Made by a program: the position numbers and the translations under genes. From Octopus sinensis (taxonomy: Eukaryota), in NCBI RefSeq assembly GCF_006345805.1, contig NW_021826451.1:1-12957 (forward strand): a stretch of 12,957 bases of DNA, read 5' to 3'. The notes below the pieces were generated by a model. The model ran no database searches. It was not told the origin of the DNA and worked only from the letters and a program-made list of their open reading frames with translations. Shown here piece by piece: positions 653 to 12,957 of the stretch (within the stretch, counting starts at the first letter, position 1; each line of letters opens with the position of its first letter).

Positions 653-1320
653 AATAAAATATTAGGGAATAAATCCAAACTTACAGGGAAAAATCAGATT
701 TAGGATTAAATCCAATTTTATAGTATAAATATATTATATTATGTTATATTAAATTACAGATAAAACCACTATTAGGCAAATCAAATAATGAAAAACATAA
801 GCCAATATACAAAATTAATTAATTTATATTATTTTAAATATATATCAAAAGTATTAAAAGTTTAATAAAAGATAAAGAGTAAAACACTACGATCGTTTCA
901 TGGCTGTACAATTCGTAATAATTCGAGTTATGGTTACAGTCAATCTTCAGGCTAATTGAAATATCTAAAATATAATCAGAAATATTTAAACAATATTTTT
1001 AAGATATAAATAATATAATATTTTACTTATAATAAACTCTATTATCAAACTAGAAACATAAAACTTAACAATTATGATTATATCAAAATCGACTATAATG
1101 TTAATATTAATTTTAATTTATAAGGTAGGAAACCCACCAATAATCTAATATCGGTATTAGTCTATATCTAATTACATAAATATTTAAAAATGACTAATAT
1201 ATATAAATTATCAATGAAAATATATAAATGTATATAAATATTAAAATCTAAAATAATCTGTATAAATAAATATATATGCACATATAATAAAAACCTAATA
1301 AATTAATTTTTCATATTTAA
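653..1320 (-). mobile_element. AT-rich interspersed repeat carrying a minimal hammerhead (Penelope-like non-autonomous element); boundaries approximate
   Basis: 748-825 recurs at 3531-3610 (gataaaaccactattaggcaaatcaaa..tgaaaaacataa). Contains a hammerhead core on the minus strand. Confidence 0.5.
885..953 (-). ncRNA. Minimal type I hammerhead ribozyme motif (degenerate)
   Basis: Minus strand reads CTGAAGA - t TGACTGTA...TACAGCCA t (stem II, 7/8 pairs) - GAAA. Palindromic stem III ACGATCGT, GUA cleavage triplet (cut 888/887), weak stem I. Confidence 0.6.
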
Positions 1321-1616: not shown

Positions 1617-1688
1617 CCGTACGCATGGGACTCGAACCCACACCTCTTATATTTGCGATAAATGTGCTACCCATTGCATCAATGTACG
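1617..1688 (-). pseudogene. tRNA-like cloverleaf (tRNA pseudogene or tRNA-derived repeat module)
   Basis: Minus strand: acceptor CGTACAT/GCGTACG, D arm ATGC-AATGGGTA-GCAC, anticodon arm TTTAT-CGCAAAT-ATAAG, T arm GTGGG-TTCGAGT-CCCAT with an intact B box. G at position 33 and a CAA anticodon with a short variable loop argue against a functional tRNA. Confidence 0.7.
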
Positions 1689-1769: not shown

Positions 1770-2750
1770 TTTCAGGTTTGGGGTGAGACTACGGCCATGC
1801 TGCAGCACAGTCTTAAAGGGTCTAGTCGAACAATTCGTCCCCAGTACCTATTTTTCAAAGCCTGGTAATTTTGTTCTCGTCCATTTGGTCGAACCTCAGA
1901 GATAAGAAGTCGTGGATCTTTTCCTTTTGAACGGCAGTTTGTAACATAATTTCTAGGTAACTAAAAAGTTTTAAACTTCGTATACTGGTAGAATGTGTTT
2001 ATAAAACATCATTTCCTCTTGGTTTTATTGAGAAAATTCTATAGTTTGTAAGATATTTCGTCTGAAAATCCGAGCATTTCGGCAATTTTAACCAATCGAT
2101 TACCTCCATTCAACTAAAAGCTTTTGCTGCGTCTAAAACTGAGACAACATCCTGTAACTAACCCTAAACCTCACCCTAATTTTTTTTCTTAATTGTTAAA
2201 TTAATTTAATTGTTACGCGTGTAAAAAAAATGGAAGGCTAAAACGAAATAATTCTATAATTTTATACACACGCTTTCCGTATACGTACGGAAAGCGTGTG
2301 TATAAAATTATAGAATTATTTTGTTTGTTAATTGTTTAAATTATTTTTCATTGGTTTAGTTTTTTTTACACACGTAGCAATTAAATTAATTTAACAATTA
2401 AGAAAAAAAAATTTGGGTGAGGGTTAGGGGGGAGGTTTAGGGTTAGTTACAGGATGTTGTCTCAGTTTTAGACGCAGCAAATGATTTTAGCTCAAAAGAG
2501 AGCATAGGATTGGTTAAAATTCGAAAAATTAAACTACGTTAAACAAACAAATTACAATTTTCTCAAGAAAGCCAAGAGAAAAAAATGTTTTATTTTGACA
2601 CATTCTAACAGTATACGAAGTTTAAAAGTGTTTAGTTAACTAGAAATTGTCTGCCGTTCAAAAGGAAAAGATCCGAAGTCGTAAACAAACCAACAACGGT
2701 TGTCAGGTTTTGGTTGAGGACAAACACCAACATAAAACCACACACACATA
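1770..2750 (-). mobile_element. Diverged 3' half of SINE family A, split by the MITE (pieces ~1770-1913 and ~2675-2750)
   Basis: ggccatgctgcagcac..tagtcgaacaattcg..aagcctggta..gaacc and gtaaacaaaccaacaacggttgtcagg..ggacaaacac align with the copies at 4109-4300 and 11911-12115. Confidence 0.7.
1914..2674. mobile_element. 761-bp foldback MITE, Merlin-like
   Basis: Termini GGATCTTTTCCTTTTGAACGGCAG / CTGCCGTTCAAAAGGAAAAGATCC. 8-bp TSD GAAGTCGT at 1906-1913 and 2675-2682. Arms are inverted along the whole length. GG termini with an 8-bp TSD fit the Merlin superfamily (inference). Confidence 0.9.
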
Positions 2751-3305: not shown

Positions 3306-3526
3306 GAAAATATGTATTATTTATGTGTATAGATATATATACGGGTTTGTGTGATTGTGTATAGAAGAATATATTAATAAAAGGAATTCCAACCTTGTCT
3401 GATTTTCACGTTTTATTTGCAATCTTATAATGATATAATAAAAGATAATATAATAAAATAAAATAAAATAAAATAATAGAATGTTAAATGTTCATTCATG
3501 CATGTGTATATATATATACATATATA

Positions 3527-3615
3527 TTAAATTAAATTAGGGATAAAACCACTATTAGGCAAATCAAAGAGTGAAAAACATAAACCAAAACATAAAAATA
3601 ATTTATATAATTTAC
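3527..3615. repeat. Fragment of the repeat at 748-825, abutting the exon acceptor
   Basis: Direct sequence match within the window. Confidence 0.75.
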
Positions 3616-3642
3616 AAAATATATAAAATATATTTTTCAGGA

Positions 3643-6835: not shown

Positions 6836-8118
6836 TTGGGTTGGCCGTTTTTTAGATTAAATTTTTTTAAAAGGTTTGATAATAAATAACTAATTCATCA
6901 ATATTGTATTCACCCTTATTGTTTACAACTTCTTCCCAACGTTCAGCAATATTTTCAATACCGCGTTGGTAGAAATAACACGACTTCGACTCAAAAAATT
7001 AATCCAACCAAGCTCTCAATTCTGCATCAGTATTGAACGAAACTTCGTACATAGCATTTGAAAGAGATCGAAAGAGGTGGAAATCCGTTGGTGCCAAATG
7101 AGGAGAGTACGGCGTGTTTGGCAGCACTTCCCAGCCATGCGTTTGAATGGCTTCCTTGGTCATATTGGCGATATTAGAGCGGGTGTTGTCATGCAGCAGA
7201 AGAACTCCATGCTGACGATTAGGTCTTTTCTCTTGAATAACCGTGTTGTCGTTCCATCTGTTGAACATAGTGTTCCGCGTTGACCGTTTGGTTCCGTTCA
7301 AGCAATTCGTAATGGATAATCCCTTCCCAGTGCCACCATACGCACAACATTATTTTATGTGGATGAAGATCTTGTTTCACGCGTGGTGTCGCTTGTTTAC
7401 CGGGGCTAAGCCATTCCTTACGCTGTTTCATATTGTTGTACAGGCACCATTTTTCGTCGCCAGTAATGGTTCGGTAAAGAAATCGTTGCTTGTGTCCATG
7501 AGTTGAGCGGTGAGAAGCAAGCAAACCAGCGGAGAACGTGGCTCGTTGATTTTTGTTGTTGTCACTTAAAGCATGCAGAACCCATGCTCCATACTTCTGA
7601 ACCTTTCCCATCGGGTGAAGATGCTTCTCTATAGCAGTGTGAGAGCATCCCATTTTCTCTGCCGGTTCCCTTGTCGTTTGACGAGAATTGTCATGCAAAA
7701 GTTGGTTTAATCGCTCTTCATCGAACTCAACTGGATGGCCAGAACGAGGTGCGTCTTTGAGGTCAAAATTTCCATTTATTGAACTTGGCATATCAATCAC
7801 GAGCGGGTCTTTCAGCTTTGGCAGCCTCTCCATACACAGCACAAATGTCGCGAGCAGCTTTTTCGGCCTTAGAACCTTGATTAAAAGTGAAAAGAAGGAG
7901 GTGTCGAAAATGCTTGTTTTTCTTAACTTGACATTCCATTTTAATGATCTTAAAATAAACAAAAATTAACTAAACTTAACTAGAAAAAAACCTCAGAAAA
8001 CAAAATAGATTCCAAAATGATTCAAAAATAAAATTCTCGAAAAAATAGATTTCAAAATTTAAAAACGCAATAAATTCCAAAATTTAAAAATACGGCGCGA
8101 ACTTAGTTGCCAACCCAA
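6836..8118 (-). mobile_element. Full-length decayed mariner element (mellifera-subfamily-like)
   Basis: TIR ends TTGGGTTGGC (6836) / GCCAACCCAA (8118). TA on the left, GA on the right. The left TIR has an internal deletion. About 1.28 kb. Confidence 0.92.
6890..7939 (-). pseudogene. mariner DD34D transposase pseudogene
   Basis: Starts MECQVKKNKHFRHLLLF..ARDICAVYGE. Motifs DAPRSG, WVLHAL (WVPHEL), ITGDEKW, LLHDN-x33-D (34 residues between the Asps) with PYSPHLAPTDFHLF. Frameshifts and stops split it across ORFs 7219-7962 and 6999-7301. Confidence 0.95.
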
Positions 8119-8702: not shown

Positions 8703-8884
8703 ATCTACTGGAGGCATAAGGCCTCAAATTTGAGGGGAAGCAACTAGTCGATTACATCGACCCCAGAATTCAACTGGTACTTATTTCATCGACCCCGAAA
8801 CGATGAAAGGCAAAGTCGACCTTGACGGAATTTGAACTCAGAACGTCAAGGCGGATGAAATGTCGCTAAGCATTTCGCCCGGCG
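8703..8884 (-). mobile_element. SINE family B, slightly 5'-truncated
   Basis: Aligns with 8384-8582. The core gtcgactttgcctttcatcgtttcggggtcgatgaaataagtaccag resembles the Meta/MESC SINE core (from memory). Confidence 0.85.
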
Positions 8885-9877
8885 AGAAAAACTAATTACT
8901 GGTATTTTTTAAGTAAGAAATTAGTCACAACTCAGAGGCCGGAAATATACATTTAAAATCAATACCAATACAAGGTGAAAAGATAACAACCTATTTTTAA
9001 CATACGTACTTTTCCCATCATAAACTTGATTGTATAAAAATGCTTTTTTTACTTAGAAAATGAGGTTGGAAACTGTATCTTTAAGCTGGCCACTTTCTGC
9101 GCTGGATTTACACTCGAAATTAAGCTAATAATCCTTTCCCCGTCAATCCACTTTAATTAATGGCACATATAATTATCGGTCCATCAACTTGCTGTCCCTC
9201 CATTGTATCTCTTCTACCATTATTAAAATGAATTTCTGCCCCATCAAACTGTATAACTGCTGCCCAAAGCCGCTGGGTACATTTACCAGCCCTTTTTTCT
9301 GTCAGCCAATTTGAGTCTCATTCGTATCAGACACGTTTCCTAAAACTTCCATTTTAGAACCACAGTATTCTGAGGCCCCATCTCAAATCCCCATTTCTCA
9401 AAATACACCCGTAGACACAAGCTGGGGTTGCGTAGCAACTGTTTCGTCTTTTAGATCTAAAAACACGGCATTGTTTGGGTAAAAAAAAAATACGTGATTC
9501 TGATGGAATATCATGTTTTCTATAAGAATCTGCGTTTGTTTCCATTCAACACTGTACTATCGATGGTCGATATAGTTCGACATCCATTCTATCTAAGGAA
9601 TAAACAGGACAGATTGTCACGGTTGGAATGACTTTTAACCACAAATCTCCTTGATCAAAGCTGAATTGAAGCTAAATCAATAAGCTCCGGATTACCCAAA
9701 TTACGTTGTTTTTACTTTCTACTTCATGAATAAATTGGTTATGAAACTCTAAAATCAAATATGAAATGATAAACTCGTTGATTTCATTAAACTAAACTGA
9801 TTGCTATAAACACAGTCGTAAAACCTTTCTGTGAAATAATTTGCATTAATTTATGAATTGTAATATATTAGTTTCAG

Positions 9878-9981
9878 TTACCCAGACTTTGACATCATGA
9901 TTTCAACCAACATTCGGATACAAGCCAAAAGACTAAGTGGAAATGACGAAAAGTACGATATTTATTTCAAAACAGATGGTG
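9878..9981 (+). CDS. Coding exon 4 (NYPDFDIMISTNIRIQAKRLSGNDEKYDIYFKTDG)
   Basis: Acceptor gtttcag| and consensus donor G|gtaagt. Phase 2 in matches exon 3, frame open, phase 1 out. Confidence 0.7.
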
Positions 9982-10177
9982 GTAAGTAAAACATATCCTC
10001 TTGATTTGAGTGCAAATGATTGTATAATTGTGTGTGTGTGAGTGTGTGTGTGTTTTTTGAAAAGTTATCATATAAACGTAAATATTTTAAATATTTTGAA
10101 AGCGAAACAGAGTAAGTTATTAGAATGATAATATTGGTCGCTGGTTGGTACTATTACCTGGTATTTCAATATTTTAG

Positions 10178-10221
10178 AGTTAAGACCATTCTTCGTCAAA
10201 ATTACAAAAGAGTGGTGTTGA
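10178..10221 (+). CDS. Candidate terminal coding exon (ELRPFFVKITKEWC*)
   Basis: The attttag| acceptor gives a phase-1-compatible short frame, but the stop lies inside a MITE arm. The true last exon may be outside the window. Confidence 0.2.
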
Positions 10222-10565
10222 TAGCTGTTTTCTCTGCCCTCTAGTGTGTGAGTATGGAAGTTATTTGATTTTAGTTACTATAGTGTACAATCAGCTGCGT
10301 GCAGTTCAGATCTGTTATTAATTTACAGGTTGTATTTGCCAATTAAGATAGATTCTATTTCACATACGTTCCCAAAGATTCTTACTGTAGCTTCAATGGA
10401 AACTTGAATTCTTGAGTGTGGCTTCTTCTGTTAAGAATCACCCACGGAAATACCACAGCCAAGACATCTGAACTGCACGCAGCTGGTTGGATACTATAAC
10501 AACGCAAAACAAGTCTCTCTCTCCACACACACACACTAGAGGGCAAGGAGATCAGCTATCAATAC
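10215..10565. mobile_element. MITE-like element with ~100-bp imperfect inverted arms
   Basis: 10215-10311 is inverted to 10466-10565 (ttgatagctg, tgccctctagtgtgtg, cagctgcgtgcagttcagat). No clear TSD. Confidence 0.7.
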
Positions 10566-10623
10566 GTATACGTATATACGTACATACACACACACAAATA
10601 TATATATACTATATATAGATATA

Positions 10624-10865
10624 CTAGTGGGTATATATCCGGTCTGTCTGTACGATGTTGAAATATATTCATAAGGCACATATTGGCATCTATCATAATG
10701 CCGATTTTCTTACAATAAAATTTGTTAAATGATATTTAAATATTGCATAGCATAATTTTACAAATTCATTTAGAATATCCAAATACAAAATATAATATAG
10801 ATAATAACAGAGAATTGTATTGTACGAAAAGTATAAAACGTTTACAGAACTTCTGTATACACAAT
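10624..10865 (-). mobile_element. Helitron 3' end (last codons IVYTEVL*, 3' UTR, CTAG terminus)
   Basis: Minus strand ATT GTG TAT ACA GAA GTT CTG TAA at 10865-10842 continues the helicase from 11429. Ends ...ACTAG|T at 10624. Confidence 0.7.
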
Positions 10866-11428
10866 TAGAAATATTGAATTTCTAAATGTCTCAAAGAGAC
10901 ATGAGCGGTGGTGGAGCGATAGATTGGTTGTATAATGTGAACATAACATGATAGTCCCGTAAGAGAATTACACCACCGTTGTTTAGCCCAAGGAAGCATC
11001 GACGCTTCCAGTTGGTTTTGACACATTTCCTCTGTCCTTATATTTGCGAAGGGGAGGCAAGTACTCCCACCAGCCAAGATTCACACCTGAAGACATGCAT
11101 GTTTCTGGGTCTTACTCGTCATCAGTCCGGGATAGTGAGACCTGCTTGCTGAGATGCCTGTCTAGCCTTCGCAAATATATATATTTACAGTGAAATCTAT
11201 TCACTGGTCACCGTAATTAGAAATATTGAATTTCTAAAGGTTTCAAAGAGACATGAGCGGTGGAGGAGCGAATCCTAAATGGTGGGGGTGTTTGCCTCCC
11301 CTTCGCAAATATAAGGACACAGGAAATGTGTCAAAGCCGACAGGAAGCGTCGATGCTTCCTAGGGCTAAACAGCGGTGGTGTAATTCCCTTACGGGACTG
11401 TCACGTTATGTTGACAGTATACAAGCAC
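10866..11428 (-). mobile_element. Hammerhead-bearing non-autonomous retroelement (retrozyme/Penelope-type), ~1.6 monomers with 5' inversion
   Basis: 14-bp TSD TCTGTATACACAAT (10852-10865, 11429-11442). Direct repeat 10863-10919 = 11215-11271 (period 352). 11271-11428 is the inverse of 10924-11081. Confidence 0.8.
11086..11131 (-). ncRNA. Type I hammerhead ribozyme (decayed stem II)
   Basis: Minus strand: cccgga CTGATGA cgagt-aag-accca GAAA catgcat GTC|ttcagg. Complete core, palindromic stem III ACATGCATGT, GUC cut at 11092/11091. Confidence 0.75.
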
Positions 11429-11674
11429 TCTGTATACACAATGCTTTTAACTTATTTGTTTGAAGCATAATAAAAAATTTCTGTGGGTTTTCTACTCTGG
11501 AACTACCTACATATAATTGATTATGTGAGAACCAACCCTCTTCTCGATGGAGACCGACAAGCTGCAGAGTTTGAGCTCGGGACTTGTTAAGGGTCAATGC
11601 GTAACTGACTCTCACTGGGAATTGCAATCGTTTGAAACGAAAGGGGACATCTGTTGGTATTCTAGGTGCAAATA

Positions 11675-11676
<2 letters not shown>
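11429..11676 (-). pseudogene. Helitron Pif1-like helicase C-terminal fragment
   Basis: PRIPTDVPFRFKRLQFPVRVSYALTLNKSRAQTL..FSHNQLYVGSSRV matches SF1/Pif1 motifs V-VI (QFP..AMTINKSQGQT; HGQLYVA.SRV). Frameshift near the end. Confidence 0.9.
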
Positions 11677-11677
<1 letters not shown>

Positions 11678-11713
<36 letters not shown>

Positions 11714-11811
11714 TTCCTGAAAAAGGAGTATTGTTAGTATTGGTGGTAGCAGTCGTGGTAGTTGTAGTGGAGACGCCTCTGTAGTTGTGGTGCTAGTTGT
11801 AGTGATGCGTG

Positions 11812-11865
<54 letters not shown>

Positions 11866-11910
11866 GAGTGTATTTTACCTTGTTTAAACATATATATATA
11901 TATATATATA
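11678..11910. repeat. (CT)n, degenerate (GTA/GTG)n and (TA)n tracts
   Basis: Seen directly. Confidence 0.9.
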
Positions 11911-12115
11911 CTCTTTTACTCTTTTGCTTGTTTCAGTTATTAGACTGTGGCCATGCTGGAGCGCGCTGCCTTTAGTCGAGCAAATCGACACCAGGAGTTA
12001 TTCTTTGTAAGCCTAGCAGTTATTCTATCGGTCTCCTTTACGAACCGCTATGTTACGGGACGTAAACACACTAACATCTGTGTGTCAAGCGATATTGGGG
12101 GACAAACATAAAACA
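11911..12115 (-). mobile_element. SINE family A, 3' half
   Basis: Reverse complement of 3100-3305 including the tail ctcttttactctttt. Truncated at the internal microsatellite. Confidence 0.85.
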
Positions 12116-12178
12116 CAAAAATACACACACGCACACACACACACGCACACACACATATATATATATAAATATAAATAT

Positions 12179-12209
<31 letters not shown>

Positions 12210-12246
12210 GTATGTATATATATATATTATATATATATATATATAT

Positions 12247-12285
<39 letters not shown>
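12116..12285. repeat. (CA)n/(TA)n microsatellite
   Basis: Seen directly. Confidence 0.95.
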
Positions 12286-12286
<1 letters not shown>

Positions 12287-12489
12287 ATAAAAATAATATT
12301 AGTGGTAATAAGAATATAGAAATAATGGGGAGAGTCATTTTATTTTTGTGCCATATAATTTAACACAATCACCGGTCAAATTTCCACTTATTTCTTATTT
12401 TTATTTTCCAAAAATTTTCGTTGAGTCTTGCAACCTTTTCAATGGTCTTGACTCTGTCCGTTATTTACATTGCATTGCTTTTTACTTGT

Positions 12490-12517
12490 TTGTGCGCATG
12501 TGTGTGGGTCAGTGTGT

Positions 12518-12559
<42 letters not shown>

Positions 12560-12957
12560 CTATGCATGCATGTATGTATGTATATATGTGTGTGTCTGCA
12601 TCTGTACGTATGAATTCTGCATATTCGTGTGCTTGCATGTCCGTGTTTGTGTATTTTTTATGTATGAGTGTGTGTGAGCGTGTGTTTGTATATTTATGCA
12701 CCTGTCTCCATGTGTTTGTGTGTGTGTGTGTTTTGCAACTATGTACCATGTTTGTATGTATGGATGTGCCTCTTTATATGTGTGGACCCGTGTCTCCATA
12801 TGTGTCCTTGTGTGAAGTAAAGTGTGTGTGTCATGTCATTCAGTCTCCATTTGCCTATGTGTGCTTGTCTGTTCTTATAACCTATGAACCTATCCGTCTG
12901 TATCTTGATCTGTTTATTTGTTCATATATATATAATATATATATATATATAATATAT
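12490..12957. repeat. Degenerate (TG)n-rich low-complexity tract ending in (TA)n
   Basis: Seen directly. Confidence 0.85.

What the first reader, a model, noticed from the sequence alone, without database searches (positions are those of the whole stretch)
11215..11442. Twin-priming-style 5' inversion whose far end maps next to the ribozyme cleavage site
Seen: the second monomer runs directly to the equivalent of ~10919, then resumes inverted from the equivalent of 10924 (beside the right TSD) up to the equivalent of ~11081-11087. The predicted GUC cut is at 11091. Microhomologies occur at both target junctions (AAT at 10863-10865 vs 11215-11217; AGA at the TSD end vs 10921-10923). Known: this geometry is the twin-priming signature of target-primed reverse transcription. 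Inference: the template's 5' end was created by hammerhead cleavage, a fossil record of ribozyme activity in vivo.
Basis: partly seen in the sequence, partly recalled or inferred. Interest (0 to 1): 0.75.

Follow-up and report, generated by a model that had tools for sequence, protein, structure and literature searches.

The report
Two-start Penelope-type retrozyme insertion
This is an old copy of a small ribozyme-bearing jumping element in a known back-to-back layout, likely made by copying its RNA onto both cut DNA strands from two fixed start points; its inner end lies about ten bases short of the predicted ribozyme cut, and related copies end less often just beyond that cut, which hints at, but does not show, cutting in living cells.

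Summary
The geometry is real: a 14-bp TSD, a 352-nt hammerhead-bearing monomer plus 57 nt of a second, then an inverted arm ending 9-11 nt short of the predicted cut. It is the known layout of Penelope-like elements (PLEs): partial tandem, inverted copy, one-sided tail. Of 382 arms in this genome, 171 start at the unit's 3' end and 142 about 56 nt inside it. Of 110 inverted pairs, 76 join one of each, 1 joins two long-tailed arms, none two short-tailed arms. So the second priming site is fixed, unlike L1 twin priming. The proposed test gave no peak at GUC: 7 ends at q122-127 against 7.9 expected, and 184 arms read through. But the termination rate falls 2.4-3-fold across the cut (49 vs 18 ends, p=3e-4). 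That is the strongest step in the unit, and two independent loci repeat this exact geometry. A cut minority of templates fits; so does stalling in the RNA rod that holds the ribozyme. Chance that cleavage made this end: about 0.35-0.4. No RNA data or activity test was available. The scan noted the two-start layout before, on other genomes.

The parts
10852..10865 (.). left target-site duplication (14 bp; last 3 nt AAT shared with the element's 3' end)
10863..11214 (-). complete 352-nt monomer of a non-coding hammerhead-bearing repeat (q352-q1); 3' part of the long arm, starting at start site 1 (q350-352)
10863..10919 (-). 'tail' between the two inferred reverse-transcription start sites (q296-352), two predicted hairpins
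11086..11131 (-). type I hammerhead motif (stem I q84-89/q124-129, CUGAUGA q90-96, stem II q98-100/q106-108, GAAA q110-113, palindromic stem III, GUC q121-123); predicted cut between 11092 and 11091; this copy has two changes that break pairs (q86, q99)
11039..11179 (-). predicted long RNA rod (q36-176) with the ribozyme at its tip; compensatory changes at q44/168 and q45/167
11215..11271 (-). direct 57-nt piece of the upstream monomer (q352-q296); inner end of the 409-nt long arm
11270..11431 (+). inverted short arm (q133/135-q294), starting at start site 2 beside the right TSD and ending 9-11 nt short of the predicted cut
11429..11442 (.). right target-site duplication (first 3 nt TCT shared with the element at q292-294)

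Best explanation
The stretch is the inner half of one insertion of a 352-nt hammerhead-bearing repeat in the tandem-plus-inverted layout of Penelope-like elements, likely made when a Penelope-type enzyme acting in trans cut both target strands and primed reverse transcription from each cut at two fixed sites of the RNA. One strand started at the unit's 3' end (q350-352) and the other about 56 nt upstream (q294-296), which leaves the tail on one side only (start sites shown as copy ends; the enzyme is inferred). The long cDNA ran 409 nt, straight through one ribozyme site, so its template was a circle or an uncut multimer. The short cDNA stopped after about 160 nt, and the two cDNA ends were likely joined at 2 nt of microhomology. 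The short arm's stop falls in a zone (q124 to about q220) where family copies end somewhat more often than average and 2.4-3 times as often as just beyond the cut. Most likely this one end is an ordinary premature stop in the 3' strand of the long RNA rod (about 0.55-0.6). A template whose 5' end was made by the hammerhead is the close second (about 0.35-0.4).
For: Two 3' end classes: 171 arms at q345-2 and 142 at q289-302, of 382 unique arms from 278 loci. Inverted pairs: 76 long+short, 1 long+long, 0 short+short, 33 with at least one other end, of 110. In 69 of 76 pairs the long arm runs more than 12 nt past the short arm's start, so both arms copy the same template stretch. TSD of 9 nt or more in 53 of 76 pairs, median 12, many in AT microsatellites. 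Long arms mostly end in AAT or GAT, in line with the ATT cleavage preference, nicking and extension of both strands, and two start sites bounding the tail reported in vitro for a Poseidon PLE (PMC11167929, main text parts 1-2 of 4 read). The same layout is described for Pen2a_Av and PLEs in general (PMC3846280, PMC8557442, passages). No peak at the cut: 7 ends at q122-127 vs 7.9 expected, 184 arms read through; stem I 3' strand at 0.76 of the mean rate, rod 3' strand q130-176 at 1.3. 102 of 382 arms cross the monomer junction.
Against: The step in termination rate has its best boundary at q121-130 and sits on the cut. Outside the rod, 3' arms of hairpins show no clear excess of stops over 5' arms (1.00 vs 1.13; 1.24 vs 0.90, p=0.06, with a 6-nt offset), which weakens the stalling reading. 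Three of the four long arms that end at the second start after a full monomer have their partner ending at q127-135 (this locus, L206, L218; Fisher p=0.006, 0.036 without this locus, post hoc). No autonomous partner was found: the abundant PLE-like RT family sampled shared no DNA with the unit in the BLAST rows seen (output cut at 2,500 characters).
Confidence: 0.6

Rival explanations
1. One reading: one RNA of about 1.65 monomers whose upstream hammerhead had cut and whose downstream one had not. The short cDNA ran to the cut end and lost 9-11 nt at joining. The long cDNA stopped where the short one had started.
For: Step at the cut: 49 vs 26 ends for q124-150 vs q84-123, rate ratio 2.58, p=9e-5. 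Pattern-only loci 49 vs 18 with 30-nt windows, p=3e-4; same direction in long arms (25 vs 8), short arms (20 vs 6) and all three samples (15/6 p=0.08, 21/8 p=0.04, 13/4 p=0.009); one arm per locus, median ratio 3.4. Best boundary of 352 at q121-124 with hand shifts, q121-130 without, for 20-40-nt windows; simulated scan-wide P=0.018. Same geometry at L206 and L218. The stem I pair next to the cut covaries, A-U 123 vs G-C 50. Animal retrozymes occur as linear and circular monomers and multimers (PMC7229834, passages). R2 5' junctions track ribozyme cut sites (PMC3774820, abstract).
Against: No run-off peak at q124; the excess at q124-140 is about 4% of arms at risk (upper bound about 10%) against the mean rate. 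The step is as much a deficit inside the core (0.36 at q90-112) as an excess downstream; in unpaired arms q124-150 is at 1.09 of the mean. An early signal in paired short arms (7 of 35, p=0.019) weakened to 7 vs 4.2, p=0.14, with more loci and this locus dropped. In a type I hammerhead the cut coincides with the end of stem I, so structure and cleavage are confounded. For PAc, cleavage was not needed in vitro and no reads began or ended at the cut (PMC11167929). The motif has C-A, not G-C, next to the core, and no Rfam hammerhead match at E<=1.
Confidence: 0.35
2. Classical L1-type twin priming: the second target overhang annealed at a chance internal site of the RNA.
For: At this locus the long arm ends (q296) where the short arm starts (q294), with a TSD and 3-nt microhomologies, as in the description of twin priming (PMC2837659, passages).
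Against: The start is fixed (142 of 382 arms). Only 7 of 76 long arms end within 12 nt of it, and termination at q291-300 is 1.08 of the mean. No poly(A) tail in the sequence.
Confidence: 0.03
3. Fold-back (snap-back) copying of the first cDNA, or later rearrangement, made the inverted arm.
For: Inner ends of the two arms lie within 25 nt of each other in 26 of 76 pairs (permutation mean 13.7, p=0.0002). Self-priming at palindromes has been proposed for PLEs (PMC3846280, passages).
Against: Here the arms' inner ends are about 160 nt apart. The inverted arm shares none of 18 private variant sites with monomer 1 and differs at subfamily sites q138, q140 and q280. In other pairs (L044, L046, L105) the short arm covers sequence absent from the long arm.
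Confidence: 0.02

Closest known systems
Endonuclease-bearing Penelope-like element insertions (Pen2a_Av of Adineta vaga; general PLE layout)
   Same: Partial tandem, adjacent inverted 5'-truncated copy, tail on one side only, TSD, AT-rich and microsatellite targets, hammerhead in the repeat.
   Different: The unit has no RT or endonuclease frame; the tail is about 56 nt rather than 30-40; the autonomous partner was not found.
Poseidon element PAc of Anolis (in vitro two-site internal initiation)
   Same: Two start sites bounding the tail, ATT-type target ends, both strands extended, read-through of the hammerhead site in most copies.
   Different: Evidence here is genomic only; the two starts are split almost strictly between the two target strands; there is a step in terminations at the cut, whereas PAc RNA reads showed no ends there.
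Animal non-LTR retrozymes (type I hammerhead tandem repeats of 150-450 bp)
   Same: 352-nt non-coding unit, type I hammerhead with palindromic helix III, head-to-tail repeats, long TSDs, predicted stable fold (z = -4.7).
   Different: Copies are dispersed, mostly under two monomers (longest arm 733 nt), and often inverted; circular RNA and cleavage were not tested; C-A mismatch next to the core.
L1 twin priming and dual priming
   Same: Both target strands prime; inverted arms inside a TSD; little microhomology at the inner junction.
   Different: Second start is fixed, arms overlap on the template, no poly(A).
R2 retrotransposon 5' junctions set by an HDV-like ribozyme
   Same: The idea that a ribozyme cut leaves a mark on genomic 5' junctions.
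   Different: In R2 the ribozyme defines the element's 5' end; here at most a minority of ends relate to the cut, and there is no sharp peak.

Membership tests
PLE-type insertion | partial tandem with adjacent inverted 5'-truncated copy | tested here: met
   window; 110 inverted pairs, 102 of 382 arms cross the monomer junction
PLE-type insertion | one-sided tail between two reverse-transcription starts | tested here: met
   171 and 142 of 382 arms; 76 of 110 pairs join one of each
PLE-type insertion | TSD and AT-rich, ATT-type target | tested here: met
   14-bp TSD here; 53 of 76 pairs with 9 nt or more, many in microsatellites
autonomous PLE | RT plus GIY-YIG frame within the unit | tested here: not met
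   the unit is 352 nt; the longer 1.9-2.1 kb form carries a CCHC-knuckle frame, with no RT or GIY-YIG family found in the two frames scanned
non-autonomous PLE | sequence shared with an autonomous partner's pLTR | tested here: inconclusive
   29 other loci of one PLE-like RT family gave no match in the BLAST rows seen; other PLE families not sampled
non-LTR retrozyme | type I hammerhead fold conserved in the repeat | tested here: met
   37 copies: 96.9% of cells paired, 35 cells with two-sided change, 0 of 500 shuffles; slid controls 29-54%. The structure was named by me from the consensus motif, and related copies inflate the counts.
non-LTR retrozyme | canonical G10.1-C11.1 pair next to the core | tested here: not met
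   C97 faces A109; the G-C pairs start one step out. No Rfam hammerhead hit at E<=1.
non-LTR retrozyme | self-cleavage and circular RNA in vivo | not testable with these tools
   only assembled contigs were available; no raw RNA reads
L1-type twin priming | second priming site at a variable internal position, arms not overlapping | tested here: not met
   fixed start; 69 of 76 long arms run past it
ribozyme-defined 5' ends (R2-like) | 5' ends peak at the cleavage site | tested here: not met
   7 ends at q122-127 vs 7.9 expected; 184 read through
ribozyme-defined 5' ends (R2-like) | termination rate changes at the cleavage site | tested here: inconclusive
   step of 2.4-3-fold at q121-130, confounded with RNA structure

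The most novel reading that the evidence does not exclude
The genome keeps a population-level footprint of in vivo hammerhead cleavage of PLE templates. Roughly 5-15% of cDNAs were made on RNAs whose 5' end is the cut, and this locus, L206 and L218 are twin-primed products of half-cut 1.65-mers. That would be direct genomic evidence that cut linear RNAs, alongside circles or uncut multimers, serve as templates for retrozyme insertion.
Probability: 0.35. Interest if true: 0.65.

Novelty: new member of a known kind. Interest (0 to 1): 0.42.

Why it matters
What the hammerhead of Penelope-like elements does in the transposition cycle is open: in the one in vitro system, cleavage was dispensable. 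This family has thousands of candidate copies, two sharply defined start sites split between the two target strands, and a measurable drop in cDNA termination at the predicted cut. That makes it a tractable system for asking whether cut, uncut or circular RNAs are the templates. The single locus proves nothing by itself.

Tried and rejected
1) An apparent peak of 5' ends at q61-75 was an artefact: 23 arms continue into a shared 1.67-kb insert. They were censored from then on. 2) An 8-nt microhomology at the inner junction was dropped: the family majority matches only 5 of 8, and alleles place the junction at q133-135. 3) An excess of paired short arms at q124-135 did not hold at p<0.05 in the larger set. 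4) Rfam: no hammerhead match; hits were microsatellite-driven miRNA models and one tRNA-like stretch. 5) Search for an autonomous partner through a neighbouring PLE-like RT remnant (L082): no Pfam family at cut-off and no shared DNA seen. 6) Sequencing runs: no RNA holder listed. Contigs of a DNA run match the left junction and 10906-11046 without differences; no listed contig bridges the inner junction with 31 letters a side, which shows nothing either way. 7) Look-up of earlier findings by place: nothing. 8) Paper searches listed no paper on this family or on a termination step at a PLE hammerhead; most were seen as listings only, subscription journals are missing, and no supplements were read.

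Full report
Observation. The window holds a 14-bp TSD (10852-10865, 11429-11442) around a complete 352-nt monomer on the minus strand (10863-11214), 57 nt of a second monomer in tandem (11215-11271) and an inverted arm (to 11431). I number the monomer q1-q352 from 11214 down to 10863. A type I hammerhead motif spans q84-129, with GUC at q121-123, so the 3' product would start at q124 = 11091. Both 3-nt microhomologies are there. BLAST extends the inverted arm to q127, but family alleles fit the direct arm over 11265-11271, so the inverted arm most likely stops at q133-135, 9-11 nt short of the cut. Three segmental duplicates (L325-L327) carry the same junction with 85-93% identical flanks; over 327 shared bases the window differs from two of them at 16 and 19 places, so the insertion is old.

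The family. The window's genome (G000, 2.72 Gb) gave 2,299 candidates for the monomer, of which 40 were scored. Three exact patterns matched 118, 300 and 185 places, 100 listed each. I took 278 loci: 30 + 8 from the DNA search, and 90, 82 and 68 from the three pattern lists. They held 382 unique arms in 247 loci. The majority fold is a long rod (q36-176) with the ribozyme at its tip; the window copy folds at z = -4.7. On 37 copies the named helices are 96.9% paired with 35 two-sided changes (0 of 500 shuffles), including the pair next to the cut. The motif departs from the canon by a C-A next to the core, and Rfam gave no hammerhead match. Activity is untested.

Two fixed starts. The 3' ends of arms are bimodal: 171 at q345-2 and 142 at q289-302 of 382. 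Among 110 head-to-head pairs, 76 join one of each, 1 joins two long-tailed arms, none joins two short-tailed arms, and 33 have at least one other end. In 69 of the 76 the long arm runs past the short arm's start, so both cover the same template stretch; only 7 end within 12 nt of that start. Paired arms usually belong to the same subfamily (44 differences at 454 diagnostic sites in the first 64 pairs), and their inner ends are correlated (26 of 76 within 25 nt, p=0.0002). This matches the published PLE layout (PMC8557442 and PMC3846280, passages) and the in vitro result that a PLE protein nicks and extends both strands and starts at two sites that bound the tail (PMC11167929, parts 1-2 of 4). 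It differs from L1 twin priming, where the internal site is found by annealing (PMC2837659, passages). A link between animal retrozymes and PLE repeats is argued in bioRxiv 10.64898/2026.07.22.740005 (part 1 of 5 read). That the mobilising enzyme is a PLE is inferred; no partner was found.

I computed termination rates per template position, counting each arm at risk only after its selecting pattern. Dropped: this locus, arms under 80% identity (11 of 382), and arms chosen only by the DNA search; 351 arms remained, with 329 true ends. Arms that run into a cargo insert were censored (23 of 382), and 8 ends were shifted by hand for subfamily indels. There is no peak: 2 ends at q124 of 186 at risk, 7 at q122-127 (7.9 expected), 21 at q124-135 (16.5 expected, p=0.16, rank 109 of 352), and 184 arms read through. 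The long arm of this very insertion reads through a cut site. There is a step: 49 ends at q124-150 against 26 at q84-123 (rate ratio 2.58, p=9e-5). A scan of all 352 boundaries put the best one at q121-124 with the shifts and q121-130 without, for 20-40-nt windows; with 15-nt windows q124 ranked 8th and 13th. The step held in pattern-only loci, in both arm classes, in all three samples (one at p=0.08) and with one arm per locus. Window sizes were my choice, and end positions are good to a few bases at best.

Reading the step. A cut minority of templates would give it, with cDNA ends trimmed before joining; the excess is about 4% of arms at risk against the mean rate (upper bound 10%) and about 15% against the rate beyond the cut (my estimate). 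Stalling in the 3' strand of the rod would give it too, since stem I ends at the cut. By region the relative rates are 1.3 for q130-176, 0.76 for q124-129, 0.36 for the core and 0.96 for the rod's 5' strand; small hairpins elsewhere show no clear 3'/5' bias. Here monomer 1 and the short arm differ at subfamily sites, so they were not copied from one 352-nt circle; a mixed dimer or two RNAs both fit. I put cleavage as the cause of this end at 0.35-0.4.

Context. Animal retrozymes are reported as linear and circular monomers and multimers, with dimer-dependent cleavage in amphibians (PMC7229834, passages); PLE hammerheads cleave poorly in vitro (PMC4209133, passages); R2 junctions follow ribozyme cut sites (PMC3774820, abstract). 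Three earlier notes of this scan report the long-plus-short arm layout in other genomes; one found ends piling up before the ribozyme and not at its cut (unchecked notes, seen after my analysis).

Verdict. The layout is known PLE biology in a family that my paper searches did not list. The cleavage footprint is a testable lead, visible only across the family. Novelty: new member of a known kind. Interest 0.42.

Noticed in passing
L310-L323 (e.g. L312:6492-8628, L323, L315, L316, L318): A 1.9-2.1 kb form of the same family carries about 1.67 kb between q82 and q62, with a sense frame holding a CCHC zinc knuckle (PF00098, E 3.5e-4 and 1e-3) and no RT found; at least two diverged versions; same tandem and inverted layout.
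   Followed up: partly
window 10921-11088 (monomer 1, q127-294): 16 of the monomer's 20 differences from the family majority fall in the 168 nt that face the inverted arm, many G>A on the sense strand; a DNA contig matches 10906-11046 without differences. Unexplained.
   Followed up: partly
L149, L172, L175: A sister family (74-78% identical) with the same two-start inverted layout; L175 shows its own hammerhead-like core.
   Followed up: no
L280-L309; one search list: A very abundant PLE-like RT family (label recalled from motifs; 11,540 candidates, open frames up to about 1,000 aa); no DNA shared with the 352-nt unit was seen.
   Followed up: partly
L297 near 723 (+); L176: A different hammerhead-like motif near a PLE-like locus; the copy in L176 has a TSD that matches sequence just downstream of that motif.
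   Followed up: no
L325-L327 (G000 C27 and C12243) vs window 8775-12676: Segmental duplicates of this region, 85-93% identical, lacking window 10608-11118.
   Followed up: partly
window 1914-2674: MITE-like stretch with 24-bp terminal inverted repeats and a central hairpin at 2243-2327.
   Followed up: no
window 1617-1688 (-): tRNA-like match (RF00005, 33.6 bits), probably the head of a SINE.
   Followed up: no
window about 7060-7130 (-): Reads like a decayed mariner transposase motif (motif recalled, not searched).
   Followed up: no
window 723-842 and 3506-3625: 120-nt direct repeat, 78% identical.
   Followed up: no
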